DNA from: Dysgonamonadaceae bacterium
Lineage (GTDB): Bacteria; Bacteroidota; Bacteroidia; Bacteroidales; Azobacteroidaceae
DNA length: 64,000 nt
Direction: 5' to 3'
Assembly: GCA_031269685.1 (NCBI GenBank)
Contig: JAISYU010000030.1
Coordinates: 729-64,728, forward strand
Positions 7,273-59,370 of this stretch are shown in pieces (within the stretch, counting starts at the first letter, position 1; each line of letters begins with the position of its first letter). The position numbers were made by a program, and so were the translations under genes. The notes beneath the pieces are model-generated. The model searched no databases. It saw nothing but the letters and a program-made list of their open reading frames with translations, and had not been told where the DNA came from.

Positions 7273-8758
7273 TTATTTTCTTGATTGTTCCAATCCATAT
7301 CCTTTACGTCTATCCTCAATCTTCAAGAGGTATGCGACGAAAATCGCTAATATCCCGAAAAGAGCGAAGATAAGCATTGGTAATGTGTAGTCGTACGTTG
7401 CGGCGCCTTTATCGTCCGCTCCGGTTACGCACCACCTGTTTAACACCCAACCGATAAGGTAAGGCACTCCCGCAAGCCCTATGTTTTGTACCCAAAAGAT
7501 GAGTGCGTATGCTGTGCCGAGCTGTTTTTCGGGGATTATCTTCGGTACGGAGGGCCACATAGCCGATGGGACAAGCGAAAACGCTATTCCTAACAGTATG
7601 ACAACGATTATCGCAAACCATACATAATTCAAGAAAGGCGCGGCAAACAGCAAATGTACAACGACAAGCAGTAATGACCCGATAAGCATTAATGTCGCCC
7701 CGTGCCCCCTCTTATCATATATCCAACCGAAAAATGGAGTCATCAGCATGTTACCGAATGGCAGCAGGCTGGGTACTATTCCCGCGAATTCCTTTTCCAC
7801 TCCGTATTTGTTGACCATTAAAGATGCTGCAAACTTCAAGAACGGAAACACTGCCGAGTAAAAAAGAACACACAGTATCGCTATCAGCCAAAAGCCTTTG
7901 TTTGCAAATACTACGCCTACATCGCGCATCTTAAATTCATCTTCTTTGGTTTTTACCGAAACCGTTGCGTCTTCGCGGTCAAGTTTTCTGTCCATCACAC
8001 AGTAAACAAGGAATACCAGCAGACCGATTGTCAACATGGCAAGCGAAAAGAGAAAAGGCGATGACATTGAGAAATTACGGGCAATGATCGGACTGAATGC
8101 CATTGCAAAGGCTGTTCCGAGTCTTGCTATTGCTACCTGGATACCCATTGCAAGGGCTAGTTCACCGGTCTTTCCAAACCATTTAACAATGATCTTGGAA
8201 ACAGTGATTCCCGTTATTTCCGAACCCATGGCAAAGACCGCAAAACCACAGCAGGCAACCAGAATCTGTGTGCGTATCCCGAAAATACTCCCTGCGTCGG
8301 GCGATATATACTCAATCGCATAGTACTTTATCGCACATCCTATTACCATCAGCGCTGCCGACATCGTACCGGTAAACCGGACCCCCATCTTATCAAGTAT
8401 GATACCTCCGAAAAACAACATTAGCAGTATCACGTTCAGCCAGCCGTAAGCGCTGTTGAAGAGACCGAATTCATCGCTCGACCACGAGAGTCGTTGCGTG
8501 TCTGCATACTTTGTCGTTGTATGCCTGCATACATTGTCGTTGCGTGCCTGCATACATTGTCGTTGTATGCCCGCATACATTGTCGTTGCATGCCTGCATA
8601 CATTGCAAAGGTTTCTCCCCGAGCATGTCCATCAAAGGCGACATTGCGTCGTTGAGGAAGTATCCCCACATCATGGTGAAGGATACTATTAATAACGCTA
8701 TCCAGCGCATCTTCCCGTTATTTCTTACATTTCCCTTTACAATACCTTGTATTTTCAT
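7273..8758 (-). pseudogene. MFS transporter interrupted and frameshifted by a 115-bp tandem array (456 aa if the array is removed)
   Basis: The N-terminus (MKIQG...RWIALLIVSFTMMWGYFLNDAMSPLMDMLGEKPL, from 8758) and the body (LSWSSDEFGLFNSAYG...GGIILDKMGVRF, to 7273) are in different frames. Deleting 8491-8605 joins them in frame (1486-115=1371 nt). Confidence 0.85.
8491..8605. repeat. 5 x 23-bp tandem array, consensus TCGTTGTATGCCTGCATACATTG
   Basis: TCGTTG recurs at 8491, 8514, 8537, 8560 and 8583; the consensus unit contains the dyad TGTATGC-N2-GCATACA. Confidence 0.97.
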
Positions 8759-17518: not shown

Positions 17519-17531
17519 TTTCCGCAAATTG

Positions 17532-17572
17532 AATTTAACCCCAAAATTACACAGTGATTTTGGGGTTAAATT
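17532..17572. terminator. Intrinsic terminator after rplS, possibly bidirectional
   Basis: Perfect 16-bp stem AATTTAACCCCAAAAT / ATTTTGGGGTTAAATT, 9-nt loop, T-rich tail; lies between convergent genes. Confidence 0.8.
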
Positions 17573-17754
17573 TTATCCATTTTCCGCCGGCAGATTTATT
17601 GTTACGGTCAAATTTCGTAGCATTGGAATTAATATAACCAATCCAGGATAAAGTTTGGAACTGACTACGACGGAATCGCCGGCTTCTCTGTGCAAAATTC
17701 TCTGAGATAGAAGTTATTAACAGGAATATAGTGCGATACGGTGGTTTTAACTTT

Positions 17755-18426
17755 TCACGGTATAATTGCAAAGTATATTTCCGTCCAGGGACCTTTTATG
17801 CCTCTGGTGTTAATCCACCTGGCTGCGAACCACACTCTTTTCCCGCGATCTTCTTCTGTGAAAGTCAGGTCCAGAGGCGGGTTGGTATCTAATTTAACGA
17901 CAGTAAGTTGTGCTATGTCCGTAGGTTTTTCGTTTGCGATGACATATACAAGTTCCAATGTGTGTTGACCTTCCGGTTTAGCCCGTTTAGTTTCGGATTC
18001 ACCGTATTCTATTATCAGGTGACGGATAAGTTTTGTCAAGACTTTCAGCCATGGGAATGTTTTTGCCACCGGCGACGGAGTTAGTGTCTTTTTTGGTACA
18101 GTCAAACCCATGTCTGATTTATCGTCATCGGTAACATTTGGGTTGAACCGTATGTATTGATTGACGAAATTCCTCGTTGCTTTTTGCGCTGCTGCGGCTT
18201 TCAGTCGCCTGTCGAGGCGATCTGTCTTACCTGCGTTTTCGCGTTCGGCGATCTGGTTAGAGATGTGAAAGTCTGCTACGATAATCCGCAGAGTTTCAAA
18301 GGCTTTTAACGTGATACCGAATCTTTTCCTCCGTTCAGCTACAACATCTATGAAGTTAACGAGCCACATTGCAAGTTCAAGGAACGAATGTGGAATGTAA
18401 TCATAGTTTCTTGGTTTTGTTGCCAT
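17755..18426 (-). CDS. Hypothetical protein, 223 aa, helical N-terminus plus beta-sandwich (FN3-like) C-terminus
   Basis: Long ORF with an A-rich ribosome-loading region; DYIP near the N-terminus and C-terminal RGKRVWFAARWINTRGIKGPW..IIP, which I recall as a family of unknown function (not verified by search). Confidence 0.75.
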   Translation of the reverse strand: MATKPRNYDYIPHSFLELAMWLVNFIDVVAERRKRFGITLKAFETLRIIVADFHISNQIAERENAGKTDRLDRRLKAAAAQKATRNFVNQYIRFNPNVTDDDKSDMGLTVPKKTLTPSPVAKTFPWLKVLTKLIRHLIIEYGESETKRAKPEGQHTLELVYVIANEKPTDIAQLTVVKLDTNPPLDLTFTEEDRGKRVWFAARWINTRGIKGPWTEIYFAIIP

Positions 18427-18462
18427 AAATTTTTGGTTTTTTAATGAGTTATTTATAAATAA

Positions 18463-18996
18463 TTAACTAATATTTGCGTAAATTCCGCTACAAATTATAT
18501 CTTTGCCTCTGCAAGTTGCGTAAATTCCGCTACAAATTATATCTTTGCCTCTACAAGTTACGTAAATTCCGCTACAAATTATATCTTTGCCTCTACAATT
18601 TGCGTAAATTCCGCTACAAATTATATCTTTGCCTCTACAAGTTGCGTAGATACCTCTGCACTTTGCAGAGATGCCGCTGCACTTTGCAGAGATGCCGCTG
18701 CATTTTGCAGAGATGCCGCTGCGTTTTGCAGAGATGCCGCTGTACTTTGCAGAGATGCCGCTGTACTTTGCAGAGATGCCGCTGCATTTTGCAGAGATGC
18801 CGCTGCATTTTGCAGAGATGCCGCTGCATTTTGCAGAGATGCCGCTGCGTTTTGCAGTGGAATGGATACAACTTGTGTGGACTCCGCTGCATTTTGCAGT
18901 GATGCCGCTGCGTTTTACGGTGATGCATCTATAAAATGCTGTGATACAACTGAAATCTGTATCTGTATCCTTATAATATGTGGAGTTTACTCTCAT
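18463..18996 (-). CDS. Putative Gly/Cys heptad-repeat peptide (upstream ORF spanning the array), 177 aa
   Basis: ATG 8 nt after a consensus -7 element; (SGISAKC)n followed by (RGKDIICSGIYATC)n; stop 36 nt before the 18426 gene. Expression unproven. Confidence 0.45.
   Translation of the reverse strand: MRVNSTYYKDTDTDFSCITAFYRCITVKRSGITAKCSGVHTSCIHSTAKRSGISAKCSGISAKCSGISAKCSGISAKYSGISAKYSGISAKRSGISAKCSGISAKCSGISAKCRGIYATCRGKDIICSGIYANCRGKDIICSGIYVTCRGKDIICSGIYATCRGKDIICSGIYANIS
18467..18928. repeat. Compound array in one 21-bp phase: 4 x 42-bp units (18474-18641), then 9 near-identical (18656-18844) and 4 degenerate (18845-18928) 21-bp units
   Basis: 42-mer TTGCGTAAATTCCGCTACAAATTATATCTTTGCCTCT(G/A)CAAG; 21-mer CTGCA(C/T)TTTGCAGAGATGCCG with dyad CTGCA-N3-TGCAG; the first half of the 42-mer matches the 21-mer at about 14/21. 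Confidence 0.95.
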
Positions 18997-19004
18997 ATCT
19001 GCGG

Positions 19005-19036
19005 CAAAATTAATACAAAGTTTTCAGACTGCCAAA
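19005..19036 (-). promoter_or_regulatory. Primary-sigma promoter of the repeat-ORF/hypothetical cassette
   Basis: Minus strand TTTG(19036-19033)-N20-TAATTTTG(19012-19005). Confidence 0.7.
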
Positions 19037-30287: not shown

Positions 30288-30291
30288 TTAT

Positions 30292-30550
30292 GAACCAAGT
30301 CCGAACCAACTCCGTTGCAAGTCCGTTGCAAGTCCGAACCAACTCCGTTGCAAGTCCGAACCAACTCCGTTGCAAGTCCGAACCAACTCCGTTGCAACTC
30401 CGAACCAACTCCGTTGCAACTCCGAACCAACTCCGTTGCAACTCCGAACCAAGTCCGTTACAACTCCGAACAAAATCCGTTGCAACTCCGAACCAACTCC
30501 GAACCAACTCCGTTGCAACTCCGAACAAAATCCGAACAAAATCCGAACAA
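30292..30550. repeat. 11-bp two-monomer array (A=GAACCAACTCC, B=GTTGCAACTCC), 23 full units plus a partial unit
   Basis: Order read directly: AABBABABABABABABABAABAA, then GAACAA running into the ATG at 30551. Confidence 0.95.
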
Positions 30551-32596
30551 ATGAAGATAATAACAGTAATAATCTTGTCACTAAACTTACTGCAAATTCA
30601 CGCACAGGAAAATCCCAAAAATACCGAATGGATGGATTTCCTCGAAGAACTCTATATGACGGAAGACGCAGACCCTGCAAGTATCGAACAACTGTATGAC
30701 GATCTGTCATACATCAGTGAACGCCCCTTTAACTTGAGAACCGTTACCCGGAAGGAACTCGAAAGATTACCATTCCTTTCTTCCATACAAATCGAAAACC
30801 TGCTTTACTATGTTTACAGGTTTGATCTGGTCGATATCTACGAATTAAAGAACGTGAAAAGCCTGGACTTTGTGACAATTAACCTTCTTTTGCCGTTTGT
30901 ATACGTCGGCGAGGCAAAAAAGACACCGCTCAACTTGAAAAATACGTTGCCTCACGTAAAACATGACGTCATTCTGCGCACCGGATACACTCTGCAACAA
31001 AAAGCCGGATACAAAAAATCTACCGAAGAAGATAAAGCCGCCAGACCAAACAAATACTACCTTGGCAACCCTTATTATATGTCTCTTCGATATGGTTTTA
31101 GGACGAATGATGATATTCAGTTTGGTTTTGCAGGAGAGAAAGATGCCGGCGAATCTTTCTGGAATAAGCACCACAAAGGGTTTGACCACTACACCTTCAA
31201 CCTCAACCTGAAAAACCGCGGGATCCTCGAAGACCTTCATATTGGCGATTACCGTCTGTCTTTTGGGCAGGGGCTTGCTATGAACACAAATTTTATAATG
31301 GGGAAAACTACCTTTATTACTAATATCGCTCAAATGAATGAAGGAATAAAACGACATGCCACAACCGACGAAAATAATTACTTCAGTGGTGCAGCTGCAA
31401 GCCTGAAAATTAATAATTTACAGTTTACCTGCTTCGGATCACACAGATTGCACGACGCCAATGCCGACAGTTTAACTGTTTTCTCCTTCAAAAACGACGG
31501 CTATAACCGCACACTGAACGATATGGAGAAACGCAATTCCGCTACGGTCAATACGGGTGGCGGGCATATACGCTGGAGAACGGAATCGGTGAATATCGGC
31601 TTAACTGCGGTCTATTATTCATTTGCAGGGAAGCAGTTAAATCCCAAGCGTCAACCGTACAATATCTTTTATCTACGGGCTAAAGACTTTTTCAATACGG
31701 GAATTAATTACGGTATGCATGGAAAATGGTTTGCGTTCCAGGGAGAGACTGCTATTGACAGGAACAGTAAATTTGCGACAGTAAATAACTTGTTGCTTAA
31801 TCCGTCTTCGCTGTTTGACCTGGCTATCTCTTATAGATCCTATGCCCGTGACTATAATGCCTTTTACGCACGCGCATTTTCAGAATCTTCGACGGTAAGT
31901 AATGAGAGTGGGTTTTACTTTGGTTGGAAGATTTACCTGTCTACTTGTTGGGAATTGTCGGGCTACATTGATTGTTTCAAATTTCCATGGTTTAAGTATG
32001 GTATTGATTCGCCTTCGGAAGGTAGTGAGAGTGTACAGAAGATGACTTTCAAGCCAAACGATAAATGGGAATTGCAGGCAAGGCACAAGTATAAGAGTAA
32101 AAGCAAAAACAAAAACAAAGATTACAATGAAGGCAGTGAGACGTTTGTCAAGCCGTATTATCAGGATCAATGGCAGTTCAGGATTACCACTGACCTGAAT
32201 AACTGTCTACAGTTGAAAACTCGGGTGGATTACAGCCGATATACGTTTCTTGAAATATTAGAGAAGGGCTGGTTTATTAGTGAAACGCTTTCCTGGTCAC
32301 CGAAATATAAATTCCACATTGACGCCTGTGCGGGATATTACGACACCGGGGGATATAATACCCGCATAAGTGTTTATGAGAAAAGCCTTCTCAATGCTTT
32401 TTCGTTCCCAAGTTTTTACGGAGAAGGATTTCGCATGTACATGGTTGTCAGGTGGAATGTTTCGATGCGGGCAAGTGTTTGTATGAAGATCGGTAATACC
32501 CGTTATTTTGACCGTACGACGATTAGTTCCGATCTTGAGGCGATTGAGGGCAGGGATAAAACGGATATAAGTTGTTTATTAAAGTGCAATTTTTAG
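30551..32596 (+). CDS. Secreted helix-hairpin-helix (ComEA-like) domain protein of Bacteroidetes, probable C-terminal beta-barrel
   Basis: Signal peptide MKIITVIILSLNLLQIHAQE; PFNLRTVTRKELERLPFLS HhH; GEKDAGE and GDYRLSFGQGL motifs; C-terminal aromatic residue. Confidence 0.8.
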   Translation: MKIITVIILSLNLLQIHAQENPKNTEWMDFLEELYMTEDADPASIEQLYDDLSYISERPFNLRTVTRKELERLPFLSSIQIENLLYYVYRFDLVDIYELKNVKSLDFVTINLLLPFVYVGEAKKTPLNLKNTLPHVKHDVILRTGYTLQQKAGYKKSTEEDKAARPNKYYLGNPYYMSLRYGFRTNDDIQFGFAGEKDAGESFWNKHHKGFDHYTFNLNLKNRGILEDLHIGDYRLSFGQGLAMNTNFIMGKTTFITNIAQMNEGIKRHATTDENNYFSGAAASLKINNLQFTCFGSHRLHDANADSLTVFSFKNDGYNRTLNDMEKRNSATVNTGGGHIRWRTESVNIGLTAVYYSFAGKQLNPKRQPYNIFYLRAKDFFNTGINYGMHGKWFAFQGETAIDRNSKFATVNNLLLNPSSLFDLAISYRSYARDYNAFYARAFSESSTVSNESGFYFGWKIYLSTCWELSGYIDCFKFPWFKYGIDSPSEGSESVQKMTFKPNDKWELQARHKYKSKSKNKNKDYNEGSETFVKPYYQDQWQFRITTDLNNCLQLKTRVDYSRYTFLEILEKGWFISETLSWSPKYKFHIDACAGYYDTGGYNTRISVYEKSLLNAFSFPSFYGEGFRMYMVVRWNVSMRASVCMKIGNTRYFDRTTISSDLEAIEGRDKTDISCLLKCNF

Positions 32597-34491: not shown

Positions 34492-35077
34492 GGCTTCAAA
34501 TTCTCTGAATTGGGGATCAAATTCTCTGAATTGGGGACCAAATTCTCCAAATTGGGGACCAGATTCTCCAAATTGGGGATCAAATTCTCTGAATTGGGGA
34601 TCAAATTCTCCGAATTGGGGATCAAATTCTCCAAATTGGGGATCAAATTCTCCAAGAATGGCGTCAATTTCTCCGAGAATGGCGTCAATTTCTCCAAGAA
34701 TGGCGTCAATTTCTCCAAGAATGGCGTCAATTTCTCCAAGAATGGCGTCAATTTTTCCAAGAATGGCGTCAATTTCTCCGAGAATGGCGTCAATTTCTCC
34801 AAGAATGGCGTCAATTTCTCCAAGAATGGCGTCAATTTCTCCGAAACTGTCGACAAATTCTCTGAAACTGTCGACAAATTCTCTGAAACTGTCGACAAAT
34901 TCCACGAAACTGTCGACAAATTCTTCCAGACGGGAGACAAATTCTCCGAAACGGGAGACAAATTCTCCGAAACGGGAGACAAATTCTTCCAGACGGGAGA
35001 CAAATTCTTCCAGACGGGAGACAAATTCTCCGAAACGGGAGACAAATTCTCCGAAACGGGAGACGATTTTTCCAACT
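34490..35077. repeat. 28 x 21-bp array in four consecutive sequence blocks (8+9+4+7 units)
   Basis: Blocks TGGGGATCAAATTCTCCAAAT, ATGGCGTCAATTTCTCCAAGA, CTGTCGACAAATTCTCTGAAA and CGGGAGACAAATTCTCCGAAA share a CAA(A/T)TTCTC core; units counted from the translated frame. Confidence 0.95.
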
Positions 35078-47944: not shown

Positions 47945-47975
47945 GTTGCTTGTTTCAAAAAAGTATGTAACTTTG
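47945..47975 (+). promoter_or_regulatory. Primary-sigma promoter of the repeat-ORF/FISUMP cassette
   Basis: GTTG(47945-47948)-N19-TAACTTTG(47968-47975). Confidence 0.65.
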
Positions 47976-47983
47976 CAATCGCT

Positions 47984-48370
47984 ATGAATACAAAAGTAAT
48001 ATATAGCATAGGGAAGAGGACGCAGGATACGGAAAAATATCCGACAGAATATTACATTTCCACATACCTGAAAAGAAATATGGAAGGGACTCCTTGCGTG
48101 ACTAAAGGGACTCCTTGCGTGACTAAAGGGACTCCTTGCGTGACCGAAGGAACTCCTTGCGTGACTAAAGGAACTCCTTGCGTGACCGAAGGAACTCCTT
48201 GCGTGACGGAAGGAACTCCTTGCGTGACGGAAGGAACTCCTTGCGCGACGGAAGGAACTCCTTGCGTGACTAAAGGGACTCCTTGCGTGACCGAAGGAAC
48301 TCCTTGCGTGACTAAAGGGACTCCTTGCGCGACGGAAGGAACTCCTTTACACCGGAAAATCTGTTGGTAA
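47984..48370 (+). CDS. Putative Gly/Cys heptad-repeat peptide (upstream ORF), 128 aa
   Basis: ATG 8 nt after the -7 element; 12 x (E/K)GTPC(V/A)T; stops 92 nt before the 48463 gene. Expression unproven. Confidence 0.45.
   Translation: MNTKVIYSIGKRTQDTEKYPTEYYISTYLKRNMEGTPCVTKGTPCVTKGTPCVTEGTPCVTKGTPCVTEGTPCVTEGTPCVTEGTPCATEGTPCVTKGTPCVTEGTPCVTKGTPCATEGTPLHRKICW
48083..48347. repeat. 12.6 x 21-bp array, consensus (G/A)AAGG(A/G)ACTCCTTGCG(T/C)GAC(T/C/G)
   Basis: Read directly; the consensus unit contains the dyad AAGGA-N2-TCCTT. Confidence 0.97.
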
Positions 48371-48462
48371 TAAGTCTTTAATGTCCTTAAAGTCTTGAAA
48401 TTCCTTACGGGAGAGACAAGAAATAAACAAAACAATACATAACAAAATTAATTATTACAAAA

Positions 48463-49914
48463 ATGAGAAGTGCTTTTTTTACATTCATGGTACTTTTAAT
48501 CCTGAGCGCAGGCGTCACAAAGGCGCAAATAACAGTAGGATCGTCAATTTCTCCACAGAGTTTCTCGGTCTTGGAAATGATAAGCAACGGTGAACGCGGG
48601 TTACGACTGCCTCAATTAACCGGCGCCCAGCGGGAAACCCTCACTGCGCAACTGAAATCTCTTACTGTAGCAAATGCGGCAAAAGCAGAAGGATTGCAGA
48701 TTTTTAATACGACTACTTTCTGTGTCGAAACGTGGAACGGTACGAAATGGATTGCCTCATGTGCAGACAATCCTGACCCATGGATAGAAATTCCCCTGCC
48801 AGATCCCGGATGCAACGAGCCTGTCCCTCCGGTGCGCTTCGCAAGATCCAACCTCGGAGCAGACCCTGCCCTCAATACTCCGAAGAAGCAGTTGGAATAT
48901 CTTGCTACTCATCCTTTTGACCCTGAAGATGCCCGCGTCTACGGAGGGCATTTCCAGTGGGGGCGCAAAGACCATGAGCATACGCTCGATGGTACATCTT
49001 TTAGGAGGTACAGTGTCACAGAAGACCCTGTATCAGTATACACCCCTGAGAATGGGTGGGAATGGACATGGGATGGTGGTGGCGGAAACAAGACTGCAAT
49101 TGACGTAAATGGACAGCCTGACGGCGATGCTGCCGGCAAGTTTGTTTATGGGGATTATCTAATAGATAACGAATGGAACTGGTATCCTGACTTGACCAGT
49201 GTCCAGGCAGATACCCTTTGGGGTAACGGTTATCCGACAAACTATGATTTTTTAACTGCCGATGGCGGATCTATTCCTTATACGAATACATTTGGGATAC
49301 TCGGATATTACCAAAAGCCTCATAAGACCATCAATGACCCGTGCCCTGCGGGATTCCGTGTTCCGACGCAGGATGAATGGGAGCGGCTGGGTAATTATGA
49401 CTGTAATCCTTCATTTGCGGAAACAAATGGTGCTACATCGAATATTAACGGAGTCGTGACGCCTGTTAACAGCGATCCGACGGTAGAAAGTTTTATGTGG
49501 GTTCCTGTTGTATGCAGTAACAGTACCGGTAAATGTGTCCCGAACAAAGACTGGTCAATACTGTCGGGTCAGGAGACTGCTTCCGGTTATGTTATTTATA
49601 CCAAATATGTGTGGGAGAATGCCGGCAGCGAGTACAAAAAGATTGATGGAACAGGTCGTTCCCTTCATGAAGCCAGCGCTCCCGAACCGGTGATATTCCT
49701 TCCTTCGGCAGGGTTACGAGATAATGTCTCGTCCGGTCCGACGCTTGCTACCGGACTTGACGGAAGGTACTGGAGCAGTACGATCGCAATAGGCAGTATA
49801 AATAGCCAACCCGTCGATGTCTCTTACGCACTGTATTTCACCAGTGACTACATATTCACTAACGGCGCCGGATACCGGTGTGCGGGTCTTAGCGTGCGCT
49901 GCGTGGCGGAATAA
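48463..49914 (+). CDS. Secreted protein with C-terminal FISUMP (Fibrobacter major paralogous)-like domain, 483 aa
   Basis: Signal peptide; GLRLPQL...GLQIFNTT N-terminal module; FQWGRK, DPCPAGFRVPT..EW, FLPSAG, YWSST and terminal GLSVRCV motifs. Confidence 0.75.
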   Translation: MRSAFFTFMVLLILSAGVTKAQITVGSSISPQSFSVLEMISNGERGLRLPQLTGAQRETLTAQLKSLTVANAAKAEGLQIFNTTTFCVETWNGTKWIASCADNPDPWIEIPLPDPGCNEPVPPVRFARSNLGADPALNTPKKQLEYLATHPFDPEDARVYGGHFQWGRKDHEHTLDGTSFRRYSVTEDPVSVYTPENGWEWTWDGGGGNKTAIDVNGQPDGDAAGKFVYGDYLIDNEWNWYPDLTSVQADTLWGNGYPTNYDFLTADGGSIPYTNTFGILGYYQKPHKTINDPCPAGFRVPTQDEWERLGNYDCNPSFAETNGATSNINGVVTPVNSDPTVESFMWVPVVCSNSTGKCVPNKDWSILSGQETASGYVIYTKYVWENAGSEYKKIDGTGRSLHEASAPEPVIFLPSAGLRDNVSSGPTLATGLDGRYWSSTIAIGSINSQPVDVSYALYFTSDYIFTNGAGYRCAGLSVRCVAE

Positions 49915-49931
49915 GTGAAAATTAATGATTG

Positions 49932-49965
49932 ATAAGGGTGTGCGAAATGTGCGCCCTTATTCGTT
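49932..49965 (+). terminator. Intrinsic terminator after the FISUMP gene
   Basis: ATAAGGGTGTGC-GAAAT-GTGCGCCCTTAT hairpin (three G-U pairs) followed by TCGTTT. Confidence 0.6.
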
Positions 49966-55781: not shown

Positions 55782-55840
55782 GTTAGTTTAATAACTTTGA
55801 GTCTGGTCTATACCCATAAAGTTTTGGGTTAGTGCATCAA

Positions 55841-55973
55841 CACTGTAAGCCGGCACACAACGACAATGTATGCTGGCTTACAACGACAATGTATGCTGGC
55901 ATGCAACGACAATGTATGCTGGCTTACAACGACAATGTATGCTGGCATGCAACGACACTGCAAGCCGGCACAC
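55841..55973. repeat. About 5.8 x 23-bp array, same family as 8491-8605 in the opposite orientation
   Basis: Units CAATGTATGCTGGC(TTA/ATG)CAACGA alternate; terminal units are CACTG(T/C)AAGCCGGCACAC. Confidence 0.95.
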
Positions 55974-59004: not shown

Positions 59005-59092
59005 AACTATTATATAACTTTACTTATCTTTTGTATATTCATTAAATGATGCAAGAAATTTTCTTATACGTATAGGGGAATTTCCCACACGC

Positions 59093-59260
59093 GGGAACAA
59101 ACTGTACACGCGCAGGAACAAATCGTACACGCGCAGGAACAAACTGTACACGCGCGGGAACAAACTGTACACACGCGGGAGCAAACTGTACACGCGCAGG
59201 AACAAACCATACACGCGCGGGAATAAACTGTACACGCACGGGAACAAACTGTACACGCGC
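59093..59260. repeat. 8 x 21-bp array, consensus (G/A)GGAACAAACTGTACACGCGC, with degenerate flanks
   Basis: Units start at 59093, 59114, 59135, 59156, 59177, 59198, 59219 and 59240. Confidence 0.95.
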
Positions 59261-59370
59261 AGAAGCAAACTTCCCATAGGTGCGGGAGAAATTCTTATTG
59301 ATATGTGAAACGTTTATATACACAATGAATTATTTTTATTACCTTTGCAACTCATTTTATATATCATAAT

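What the first reader, a model, noticed from the sequence alone, without database searches (positions are those of the whole stretch)
17755..19036. Cassette architecture 1: promoter - 8 nt - ATG - Gly/Cys heptad-repeat ORF - accessory gene
Seen (minus strand): TTTG-N20-TAATTTTG, then exactly 8 nt (CCGCAGAT), then the ATG of a 177-aa ORF that reads through the whole 21/42-bp array and stops 36 nt before a 223-aa hypothetical gene, which converges on the rplS terminator. The same layout, including the 8-nt gap, occurs at 47945-49960 with an unrelated repeat and an unrelated cargo gene. Both cassettes sit between housekeeping genes with their own promoter. Inference: a recurrent, possibly undescribed expression module in which a near-leaderless, length-variable repeat peptide or repeat-RNA leader precedes and may control an accessory gene, for example by ribosome-coupled anti-termination or redox/metal sensing through Cys, or is itself the product.
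Basis: partly seen in the sequence, partly recalled or inferred. Interest (0 to 1): 0.85.

Follow-up and report, generated by a model that had tools for sequence, protein, structure and literature searches.

The report
Portable promoter–repeat leader cassettes
The reported layout is real: it is one copy of a many-times-repeated "promoter + start codon + 21-base tandem repeat" module that a termite-gut Bacteroidales bacterium places in front of accessory and housekeeping genes, most often one uncharacterised gene family, and it probably ties expression of the downstream gene to translation of a fast-changing leader, though this has not been shown.

Summary
Every detail of the observation checks out. 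On the minus strand there is TTTG-N20-TAATTTTG, 8 nt, ATG, a 177-codon frame through a 21/42-bp array, a stop, 36 nt, then a 223-aa gene ending at the shared rplS hairpin. A second copy sits at 47968-49914.

It is not a private oddity. The 2.23-Mb genome holds 185 arrays with a 21-bp-multiple period. It also holds about 45 copies of a homologous promoter/leader, usually carrying an (AC)n tract, and 28 paralogs of the 223-aa cargo (a three-helix bundle plus an FN3 domain, no Pfam match). About 20 of those paralogs have an array 45-95 nt upstream. The array-then-gene pairing recurs in other Bacteroidales genera with unrelated unit sequences. Long 21-bp arrays were common only in the sampled genomes that carry this gene family.

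The "heptad protein" is not a conserved protein. Frames are equally open on both strands of the 3n-period arrays.

My best reading (about 40%) is a portable leader that ribosomes translate from a near-leaderless AUG up to the cargo start, with (AC)n slippage acting as a switch in sister copies, as in the streptococcal pil1 locus. The main rival (about 33%) is DNA-level minisatellites with accidental ORFs. Expression data were unavailable.

The parts
19033..19036 (-). -33-like TTTG of the cassette-1 promoter
   Evidence: Read directly. It lies 20 nt upstream of the -7 box.
19005..19012 (-). -7 box TAATTTTG (Bacteroidota TAnnTTTG type)
   Evidence: It is homologous to the promoter variant ...AAAACTTTATGTAATTTTG... 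of sister cassettes C56, C88, C124 and C113.
18997..19004 (-). 8-nt gap CCGCAGAT between the -7 box and the ATG
   Evidence: The gap of 8 is enriched genome-wide (72 vs a mean of about 42).
18463..18996 (-). Leader reading frame (177 codons) from the near-leaderless ATG through the whole array
   Evidence: The stop lies 36 nt before the cargo ATG. The peptide is not conserved between sister cassettes.
18474..18926 (.). Tandem array: about 13 x 21 bp (unit GCAGCGGCATCTCTGCAAAAT on the minus strand) followed by 4.2 x 42 bp
   Evidence: TRF. The same unit family is found on contig C99 with a different copy number. The unit contains a short dyad, GCAG...CTGC. The leader RNA folds at -162 kcal/mol, z = -4.1.
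18427..18473 (-). A/T-rich spacer between array and cargo ATG; no TAnnTTTG
   Evidence: It is homologous to the spacers of the C67 and C99 copies.
17755..18426 (-). Cargo: 223-aa protein with an N-terminal three-helix bundle and a C-terminal FN3 domain, no signal peptide
   Evidence: AlphaFold2 pLDDT 91.6. Foldseek finds FN3 domains, E = 6.5e-5. No Pfam, NCBIfam or PHROG match. It has 28 paralogs in the genome and 5944 representative clusters in the profile search.
17531..17573 (.). 20-pair hairpin shared by the convergent rplS and cargo genes (bidirectional terminator candidate)
47968..47975 (+). Cassette 2: -7 box TAACTTTG, then 8 nt (47976-47983)
47984..48370 (+). Cassette 2 leader frame (128 codons). 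Its first 56 nt are homologous to the conserved multi-copy leader 'mod1'.
   Evidence: BLASTN to mod1: 76.8% identity over positions 1-56, E = 3e-5.
48083..48347 (.). Cassette 2 array, 12.6 x 21 bp (GAAGGAACTCCTTGCGTGACT)
   Evidence: The same unit occurs in inverse orientation upstream of an FN3-family paralog on contig C66.
48372..48407 (.). Short 9/18-bp TTAAAGTCC-type repeat that commonly flanks the 21-bp arrays in this genome
48463..49914 (+). Cassette 2 cargo: 483-aa secreted protein with a weak FISUMP/Fib_succ_major match
   Evidence: both matches below the curated cut-offs. Five paralogs lie downstream of arrays.

Best explanation
Cassette 1 is one copy of a portable expression module of a termite-gut Bacteroidales (same GTDB genus as a 1,114,206-bp genome that I recall to be Candidatus Azobacteroides).

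The module has four parts:
- a sigma-ABfr-type promoter (TTTG / TAnnTTTG);
- an ATG fixed 8 nt after the -7 box, so the transcript is leaderless or nearly so (inferred);
- a leader kept open for translation that contains a fast-evolving tandem array with a 21-bp-multiple period;
- the cargo start codon, at most about 100 nt after the array.

The array is part of the cargo's 5' leader. This is shown only to the extent that no other TAnnTTTG lies between array and cargo.

The repeat 'protein' is not the product. Ribosomes starting at the 5' AUG read through the array and terminate beside the cargo start. This keeps the long leader covered, which would counter Rho or hairpin termination, and allows re-initiation on the cargo (inferred).

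In most sister copies an (AC)n tract inside the leader ORF sets the reading frame, so slippage would switch the cargo on or off, as in the pil1 leader-peptide/attenuation switch of Streptococcus gallolyticus (inferred). Cassettes 1 and 2 lack (AC)n. There the frame is fixed, and only array length, always a multiple of 3 nt, can vary.

The 21-bp period itself is set at the DNA level, not by codons.
For: Recurrence and portability:
- 72 TAnnTTTG-N8-ATG sites; 17 have arrays within 400 nt and 13 have the ATG frame spanning the array.
- About 45 copies of a 125-nt leader, mod1.
- A homologous promoter plus array on C99 drives a UbiA-like gene.

No TAnnTTTG lies between array and cargo.

Leader frames of 280-900 nt stop within -39 to +20 nt of the cargo ATG in about 15 of 26 FN3 paralogs, including an ATGA overlap in C119. 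In the DUF6261 cassette C103 the arrangement is stop, 1 nt, ATG.

The 450 nt upstream of the cargo are fully open in one sense frame in 6 of 20 cassettes, against 0 of 20 on the antisense strand. The longest open run is greater on the sense strand in 16 of 20 (Wilcoxon p = 0.006).

Arrays whose period is not a multiple of 3 (41/83 bp) must be open in all frames to be translated. All 5 of known orientation are nearly stop-free on the transcribed strand: 0.34 vs 4.71 stop trinucleotides per 100 nt.

The mod1 ORF is intact in 19 of 21 full copies, and variation is concentrated at third codon positions (45/62/96 for positions 1/2/3).

All 43 (AC)n tracts of 8 or more units but two follow the mod1 end. 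The ATG frame ends at the same mod2 stop at (AC)n lengths of 10, 23, 29 and 35.

Other species carry poly-C or (AG)n at the same place. In L037 the ATG frame passes through poly-C, leader and array in frame; in L041 it is off by one base.

The pil1 mechanism is established (PMC3894217).
Against:
- For the 90 oriented 3n-period arrays, stops and open frames are the same on both strands (4.3 vs 4.3 per 100 nt; at least one open frame in 76 vs 70 arrays).
- The antisense strand also shows long open runs (mean 330 vs 380 nt), so most of the 'ORF' comes from low sequence complexity.
- Arrays also lie in convergent gaps (22 of 117) and ahead of housekeeping genes.
- In other metagenomic relatives the N8-ATG opens only 2-17 codons, and in L036-L042 there is no ATG at N8.
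- Every assembled (AC)n copy is in the short frame. That would equally fit a small (Thr-His)n peptide as the real product.
- Cassettes 1 and 2 have no frame-shifting repeat, so they cannot switch this way.
- I found no clear terminator in the leader.
Confidence: 0.4

Rival explanations
1. The arrays are non-coding, DNA-level minisatellites of a BrickBuilt-like repeat element (leader, array, tail). They spread through intergenic DNA and happen to carry a promoter. The ORF and the N8-ATG are by-products of low complexity and shared descent. Any effect on the cargo comes only through the promoter or DNA structure.
For: - There are 185 arrays with a 21n period, and others at 20, 22, 23, 41 and 83 bp. 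The period clusters around two helical turns rather than around codons.
- Arrays lie in gaps of every gene orientation and ahead of housekeeping genes.
- 3n-period arrays show no strand asymmetry of stops.
- Arrays are strongly self-complementary, but equally so on both strands (22:22, p = 0.99), which points to a DNA-level dyad with no G.U signature.
- BrickBuilt has a leader, a 23-nt array and a tail, is intergenic, has promoter activity, and its called ORFs are not expressed.
- Alternating purine-pyrimidine tracts, (AC)n plus CGCGCG, follow the promoter.
Against: - It does not explain the stop-free transcribed strand of the 41/83-bp arrays.
- It does not explain the sense-only fully open 450-nt leaders or the stop-next-to-ATG junctions.
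- It does not explain the third-position bias in mod1.
- Unit sequences differ between copies, unlike BrickBuilt.
- No terminal inverted repeats were seen.
Confidence: 0.33
2. The arrays are docking platforms, or products, of the array-associated proteins. The three-helix+FN3 family, and perhaps DUF6261, would recognise, organise or propagate period-21 arrays. Gene and array would then form one functional or selfish unit.
For: - 16 of 24 called FN3 genes have an array within 250 nt upstream, against 73 of 1584 other genes (odds ratio 41, p = 1e-15).
- The same pairing, with unrelated units, occurs in other termite-gut MAGs, JGI contigs and other genera.
- Long 21n arrays per Mb were 0 and 11 in two genomes without the family, against 40-87 in four genomes with it.
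- A second multi-copy helical family, DUF6261, shows the same layout.
Against: - Paralogs 87% identical have unrelated array units, so recognition cannot be sequence-specific.
- The N-terminal domain has no structural match to DNA-binding folds (Foldseek E > 1).
- Most arrays are not next to such a gene.
- The correlation rests on six genomes, partly sampled near the genes.
Confidence: 0.12
3. The repeat ORF encodes a real repetitive (7-aa period) protein that works with the downstream gene as a two-gene operon.
For: - Gene callers call these ORFs in public contigs.
- The ATG-initiated sense ORF spans the array in 16 of 20 cassettes, against 4-5 on the antisense strand.
- The spacing to the next gene is operon-like.
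Against: - The peptides share no sequence, composition or heptad a/d pattern.
- The same unit is used in both orientations.
- No Pfam family matches cassette 1's ORF; cassette 2's ORF gives only low-complexity matches.
- Some cassettes have no open sense frame: C101b, C119a, C64, C120 and L007.
Confidence: 0.07
4. The array is a structured non-coding RNA leader (a chain of small hairpins) that binds a factor or sets mRNA stability.
For: - The cassette-1 leader folds 4 SD better than shuffles.
- 36 of 44 arrays have z < -2.
Against: - There is no sense/antisense energy difference.
- There is no Rfam family in the window.
- Units are unrelated between copies, so there is no common loop or motif.
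Confidence: 0.06

Closest known systems
pil1 leader-peptide phase variation with attenuation, Streptococcus gallolyticus (Danne et al. 2014, PMC3894217)
   Same: A short repeat inside an upstream leader ORF changes how far ribosomes travel, and that decides transcription of the downstream surface-structure genes. The sister cassettes here carry (AC)n inside a 41-codon leader ORF ahead of accessory or surface genes.
   Different: - The phylum differs, and the mRNA here is leaderless or nearly so.
- The repeat is a dinucleotide, or poly-C in relatives.
- A 200-450-nt period-21 minisatellite follows the leader ORF instead of a single terminator hairpin.
- There are tens of copies per genome.
- Cassettes 1 and 2 lack the frame-shifting repeat.
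- Nothing has been shown experimentally.
BrickBuilt minisatellite MITE of Porphyromonas gingivalis (Klein et al. 2015, PMC4596501)
   Same: Both are in Bacteroidales. Both are intergenic and multi-copy, with a conserved leader plus a tandem array of about 2 helical turns. Both show promoter activity, and both have spurious-looking ORFs called across the array.
   Different: - BrickBuilt uses one 23-nt unit in all 19 copies and has terminal inverted repeats.
- Here the unit differs from copy to copy while the 21-bp step is kept.
- No TIRs were seen here.
- The leader carries an N8-ATG and (AC)n.
- There is a strongly associated gene family.
- A separate same-unit 23-bp family in this genome (28 arrays) is the closer formal analogue of BrickBuilt.
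Tandem repeats of Borg extrachromosomal elements (from my own knowledge: Schoelmerich et al. 2023, PLoS Biol; not read here)
   Same: Both show pervasive, fast-evolving tandem repeats with private unit sequences, between genes and at gene starts, which create repeat peptides when in frame.
   Different: Borg repeats are in archaeal elements, have no fixed period and no associated portable promoter or gene family.
SSR contingency loci with dinucleotide repeats in the 5' coding region (e.g. Helicobacter pylori oipA CT repeats; from my own knowledge)
   Same: The length of a dinucleotide tract sets the reading frame at the start of a gene.
   Different: Here the tract lies in an upstream leader frame, not in the cargo itself, and is followed by a minisatellite.

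Membership tests
BrickBuilt-type minisatellite MITE | Tandem array flanked by a conserved leader (and tail) shared by all copies | tested here: met
   A conserved promoter/leader (mod1, about 45 copies) and mod2 precede the arrays. 9-bp TTAAAGTCC repeats often flank them. No conserved tail was defined.
BrickBuilt-type minisatellite MITE | The same repeat unit in all copies | tested here: not met
   Units differ from array to array; only the period is shared.
BrickBuilt-type minisatellite MITE | Terminal inverted repeats / empty versus filled sites | not tested
   No TIRs were noticed in the alignments. Synteny with relatives was too poor to find an empty site.
Leader-peptide SSR switch with attenuation (pil1 type) | Slippage-prone repeat inside an upstream leader ORF | tested here: inconclusive
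   Met in sister copies: (AC)n of 8-44 units follows a 41-codon ORF. Not met in cassettes 1 and 2, whose only repeat has a 3n period.
Leader-peptide SSR switch with attenuation (pil1 type) | Premature terminator that the longer leader frame overruns | tested here: inconclusive
   No canonical stem plus U-run was found in cassette 1's leader. The arrays are hairpin-rich. Terminator-like hairpins can be seen in some metagenomic leaders.
Leader-peptide SSR switch with attenuation (pil1 type) | Repeat length varies within populations and changes expression | not testable with these tools
Most of the 42 mod1 copies, about 30, lie at contig ends, typically running into (AC)n.
Leaderless mRNA | AUG at or within a few nt of the transcription start | not testable with these tools
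   Inferred from the fixed 8-nt gap after the -7 box. About 3.7% of B. thetaiotaomicron mRNAs have 5' UTRs under 10 nt (PMC7366714).
Fibronectin type III domain (cargo C-terminal half) | Seven-strand beta-sandwich with FN3 topology | tested here: met
   AlphaFold2 pLDDT 91.6. Foldseek against PDB finds FN3 domains, E = 6.5e-5 and probability 1.0. No sequence-profile match.
FISUMP / Fib_succ_major (cassette-2 cargo) | Score above the curated cut-off of PF09603 / TIGR02145 | tested here: not met
   28.7 bits against a 33.9 cut-off, and 21.7 against 41.65. It is a distant relative at best.
Iteron / centromere-like protein-binding array (e.g. sopC) | Phased dyad-symmetric units plus a cognate binding protein | tested here: inconclusive
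   The 21-bp period and the self-complementarity are met. There is an adjacent conserved gene, but paralogs 87% identical have unrelated units and no DNA-binding fold was found.
Coiled-coil heptad-repeat protein | Hydrophobic a/d positions conserved across repeats and homologues | tested here: not met
   The units are Gly/Pro/Cys/charged-rich and unrelated between copies.

The most novel reading that the evidence does not exclude
Period-21 tandem arrays and the three-helix+FN3 protein family (with DUF6261 as a second partner) form a previously unrecognised functional pair in Bacteroidales. The protein would read or organise arrays by their two-helical-turn geometry rather than by sequence, or would take part in making them. 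The promoter, leaderless-ORF and (AC)n leader would then be a new slipped-strand switch that gates this pair and other surface genes. Such a switch type is unreported in an order where phase variation is thought to run on DNA inversion.
Probability: 0.15. Interest if true: 0.9.

Novelty: new variant of a known kind. Interest (0 to 1): 0.7.

Why it matters
In the literature I could search, phase variation in Bacteroidales is attributed to invertible promoters and shufflons. A repeat-slippage switch built into a translated, near-leaderless leader would be a second, unreported route.

Such a switch would also be directly testable in Bacteroides thetaiotaomicron reporters.

This work ties together three things. 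The first is the unexplained "21-bp arrays" already flagged in several uncultured Bacteroidota genomes. The second is a portable promoter/leader. The third is two uncharacterised gene families: a three-helix+FN3 family with 5944 representative clusters, and DUF6261. That gives the arrays a first genetic handle.

There is also an annotation point. The repeat ORFs are routinely called as hypothetical proteins and are probably not protein products in their own right.

Tried and rejected
- Functional heptad or Cys-rich peptide: rejected. The peptides are unrelated between copies and the same unit is used in both orientations.
- Known RNA family: none found in the window at Rfam gathering thresholds.
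- RNA-level hairpin selection: no sense/antisense difference.
- Known protein families for the 223-aa cargo: Pfam, NCBIfam, PHROGs and a PDB sequence profile gave nothing. Foldseek on the N-terminal domain alone gave nothing with E < 1.
- Mismatch-repair loss as the cause of the repeats: MutS1 and MutS2 are present. MutL was not checked.
- Empty-site comparison at the rplS locus in relatives: synteny is not conserved.
- Strain comparison through identical proteins or DNA words: nothing was returned, and near relatives are withheld.
- Arrays as a strictly 5'-of-gene feature: rejected. Convergent gaps are not depleted.
- N8-ATG as a general leaderless signature of bona fide genes: after removing the cassette family, the number of long ORFs at gap 8 is no higher than at neighbouring gaps.
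- First genome-contig scan with the single cargo protein: no relatives found. An 18-sequence alignment was too divergent for pattern search.
Full report
**1. The observation**

Reading the minus strand confirms every element of the reported layout.
- TTTG lies at 19036-19033, followed by 20 nt.
- TAATTTTG lies at 19012-19005, followed by CCGCAGAT and ATG at 18996.
- A 177-codon frame runs to 18463. It covers the TRF array 18474-18926, which has 21-bp units followed by 42-bp units.
- After 36 nt comes the ATG of a 223-aa ORF (18426-17755).
- A 20-pair hairpin at 17531-17573 is shared with the convergent rplS.

The second cassette is built the same way: -7 box 47968-47975, 8 nt, ATG 47984, a 12.6 x 21-bp array, and a 483-aa secreted protein at 48463-49914.

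Five of the six frames across the cassette-1 array give listed ORFs of 87-177 aa, so an open frame there means little by itself.

**2. What it belongs to**

The window is part of a 2.23-Mb, 125-contig genome with 43.9% G+C.
- TRF finds 421 tandem-repeat loci, 3.6% of the genome.
- 185 of them have a period of 21 bp or a multiple. There are 34 more at about 20/22/41/83 bp, 52 of the 23-bp class, 55 built from the 9-mer TTAAAGTCC, and 38 (AC)n tracts.

TAnnTTTG followed by exactly 8 nt and ATG occurs 72 times, against about 42 on average for other gaps. Seventeen of those sites have an array within 400 nt, and in 13 the ATG frame spans the array.

The excess comes from one homologous family, built as follows:
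- a promoter;
- a conserved 125-nt leader (mod1, about 45 copies, 85-100% identical);
- an (AC)n tract; 41 of the genome's 43 (AC)n tracts of 8 or more units follow the mod1 end TTTTGTTA;
- a second conserved piece rich in alternating CG (mod2);
- a 21/41/42/63-bp array, and finally a gene.

Most copies lie at contig ends, which suggests the repeats break the assembly.

Cassette 2 starts with the first 56 nt of mod1. Cassette 1 uses the second promoter variant of the same family.

A sister of cassette 1 on contig C99 has the homologous promoter, leader, array (15.5 x the same 21-bp unit) and trailing spacer, but a UbiA/MenA-like membrane protein as cargo. The module is therefore portable relative to its cargo.

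**3. The cargo**

The 223-aa protein has no Pfam, NCBIfam or PHROG match.
- AlphaFold2 with a paralog alignment gives a confident model (pLDDT 91.6) of an N-terminal three-helix bundle plus a C-terminal FN3 domain.
- Foldseek finds only FN3 domains.
- The helical domain alone has no significant structural neighbour.
- There is no signal peptide.
- A profile of the paralogs finds 5944 representative clusters at E <= 1e-3 in 1.84 billion proteins, so this is a large uncharacterised family.

The genome has 28 paralogs, and about 20 have a 21n array ending 45-95 nt upstream of the ATG. In a crude gene catalogue, 16 of 24 called paralogs have an array within 250 nt upstream, against 73 of 1584 other genes (odds ratio 41, p = 1e-15).

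The same array-then-gene layout, with unrelated units, appears in:
- other termite-gut MAGs, labelled Prevotellaceae, Odoribacteraceae, Dysgonomonadaceae or Bacteroidales;
- two JGI contigs;
- other genera of the order, where one copy has (AC)19 instead of an array.

Within the order the family is sparse: 9 of 201 genomes, with 1-3 copies outside this clade.

In a small survey, arrays of at least 100 bp with a 21n period had these densities:

| Genome | Family copies | Long 21n arrays per Mb |
|---|---|---|
| G003 | 0 | 0 |
| G013 | 0 | 11 |
| G081 | 3 | 40 |
| G024 | 6 | 41 |
| G012 | 12 | 87 |
| G000 (this genome) | 28 | about 70 |

A second multi-copy helical family, DUF6261 (PF19775, E = 2.4e-36), shows the same layout in seven copies.

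Arrays also precede FISUMP-like and large surface proteins, and many housekeeping genes. They occur in gaps of every gene orientation.

Two FN3-family paralogs that are 87% identical have unrelated arrays. This argues against sequence-specific recognition between protein and array.

**4. Is the repeat frame translated?**

Evidence for translation:
- ATG-initiated sense ORFs span the array in 16 of 20 FN3 cassettes, against 4-5 on the antisense strand.
- Leader frames of 280-900 nt stop within -39 to +20 nt of the cargo ATG in about 15 of 26 paralogs, including an ATGA overlap. In the DUF6261 cassette the arrangement is stop, 1 nt, ATG.
- The 450 nt upstream of the cargo are entirely open in one sense frame in 6 of 20 cassettes and in 0 of 20 on the antisense strand.
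- Arrays whose period is not a multiple of three are almost free of stop trinucleotides on one strand (about 13 of 17). In all five of known orientation, that strand is the transcribed one (0.34 vs 4.71 per 100 nt).
- The 41-codon mod1 frame is intact in 19 of 21 full copies, and variation is concentrated at third positions (45/62/96).
- In L037 an ATG frame runs through poly-C, leader and array. In L041 it is out of frame by one base.
- In L048 a diverged leader still reads ...ILL(TH)n into (AC)22.

Evidence against translation:
- For 90 oriented 3n-period arrays there is no strand difference in stops or open frames.
- Antisense open runs are nearly as long as sense runs (330 vs 380 nt).
- The repeat peptides are unrelated, and the same unit is used in both orientations.
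- Some cassettes have no open sense frame.
- In related metagenomic leaders the N8-ATG opens only 2-17 codons.
- Every assembled (AC)n copy has the ATG frame ending at the same mod2 stop, about 40 nt after the tract. That is either a uniformly OFF state or a genuine small (Thr-His)n peptide.

**5. RNA or DNA?**

No Rfam family matches in the window.

The arrays are strongly self-complementary. The cassette-1 leader has z = -4.1, and 36 of 44 arrays have z < -2. Sense and antisense fold equally well (22:22, p = 0.99), so there is no G.U signature of selection on the RNA.

The period distribution (21, 42, 63 and 84, but also 20, 22, 41 and 83) centres on two helical turns rather than on codons.

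I conclude that the period is set at the DNA level, by mechanism or by protein/structure phasing. The open frame is a secondary constraint imposed on arrays that sit in translated leaders.

**6. Mechanism and comparison with known systems**

The closest working analogue is the pil1 switch of Streptococcus gallolyticus. There, GCAGA repeats change the length of a leader peptide, and ribosomes translating the longer form destabilise a premature terminator (PMC3894217).

An earlier agent of this scan reached the same reading for an (AC)23 tract in a leader ORF of a type V pilus operon in another Bacteroidales genome, and reported length differences between strains (e1-4205877). My metagenome scan found about 29 further promoter-leader-(AC)n-(CG)n elements, without arrays, ahead of fimbrillin-like lipoproteins, a BspA-type LRR protein, a SusC-like receptor and an O-antigen-ligase-like protein.

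The closest structural analogue is the BrickBuilt minisatellite MITE of Porphyromonas gingivalis: leader, 23-nt array and tail, intergenic, with promoter activity (PMC4596501). It uses one unit sequence throughout and has terminal inverted repeats.

The papers returned by my searches describe Bacteroidales phase variation only as DNA inversion. I found no paper on 21-bp arrays or (AC)n switches in this order.

Five earlier notes of this scan describe clade-wide 21-bp arrays in uncultured Bacteroidota as unexplained. The present genome fits that picture. It adds the links to a portable leader and to two gene families.

**7. Verdict**

The specific ideas of a functional Gly/Cys heptad peptide or Cys-based sensing are not supported.

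I rate the translated-leader model at about 0.40: coupling and anti-polarity, with an (AC)n switch in sister copies. I rate a purely DNA-level minisatellite element with accidental ORFs at about 0.33, and a protein-array partnership at about 0.12.

**Limits**
- The orientation of many arrays is inferred.
- Paralogous copies are not independent observations.
- The identity of G003 as Candidatus Azobacteroides pseudotrichonymphae rests on my memory of its chromosome length (1,114,206 bp).

Noticed in passing
window 8490-8605 and 55840-55957: Two 23/46-bp arrays with the same unit (GTCGTTGCATGCCTGCATACATT) in opposite orientation. Genome-wide there are 28 arrays with a 23-bp period, many sharing one palindrome-bearing unit (GTATGCCGGCATGCAACGACAAT). 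A same-unit 23-bp minisatellite is formally much closer to BrickBuilt than the 21-bp arrays are.
   Followed up: partly
window 30292-30551: A 22-bp x 10.5-11.8 array abuts the real start (ATG at about 30553, signal peptide MKIITVIILSLNLLQIHAQ) of a 769-codon ORF. It is free of stop trinucleotides on the + strand, so the called ORF begins at 30290, upstream of the array.
   Followed up: partly
window 34497-35064: 27 x 21 bp fills the whole 606-nt gap between two co-directional genes. Five of six frames are open. The + frame ends 8 nt before the next gene's ATG (a MiaB/RimO-like protein).
   Followed up: partly
window 59086-59271: An 8.9 x 21-bp array is open in all three frames on the minus strand, and no plus-strand ORF of at least 40 aa covers it. 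It lies upstream of a minus-strand 86-aa ORF and a 515-aa gene, although a plus-strand gene starts 100 nt away.
   Followed up: no
contig C52 65337-65486 (just past the window's 3' end; (AC)30 at window coordinate 64699 onward): Another mod1 leader with (AC)30 ends the contig. Most of the 42 mod1 copies (about 30) lie at contig ends, typically running into (AC)n, so these elements fragment the assembly and their true number is probably higher.
   Followed up: partly
genome-wide; window 48372-48407: There are 55 short arrays built from the 9-mer TTAAAGTCC (also as 18-, 27- and 36-mers). They often flank 21-bp arrays on both sides in direct orientation (e.g. C31 11485-12049, C91 7803-8404).
   Followed up: no
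mod2 in G000 (e.g. C114, C121); L048 5416-5560; L039; L064: Directly after the promoter-proximal (AC)n there are further alternating purine-pyrimidine runs (TATATATTACGCGCGCGC, GCGCACACGCACACACACAGACGCGCGCACG), which are Z-DNA-prone sequence. Related species carry C8-14 or (AG)n at the equivalent place.
   Followed up: no
G000 C3, C25, C31, C64, C71, C103, C119 (e.g. L206 546-1472): Seven paralogs of a DUF6261 protein (about 310 aa, helical, no signal peptide) each sit directly behind a 21n/41-bp array. In C103 the leader-frame stop is 1 nt from the DUF6261 ATG.
   Followed up: partly
L051, L064, L063, L076, L088, L065, L089, L082 (public metagenome contigs): A promoter-leader-(AC)n-(CG)n element without 21-bp arrays lies ahead of fimbrillin-like lipoproteins, a BspA-type LRR protein, a SusC-like receptor and an O-antigen-ligase-like protein in other Bacteroidales. 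One genome (Ga0316613) carries at least 9 copies.
   Followed up: partly
L045 (contig JAIRKR010000063, labelled Puniceicoccales): A weak relative of the FN3-family protein (29% identity, E = 4e-11) is reported in a Verrucomicrobiota-labelled termite-gut MAG. This could be horizontal transfer or a binning error.
   Followed up: no
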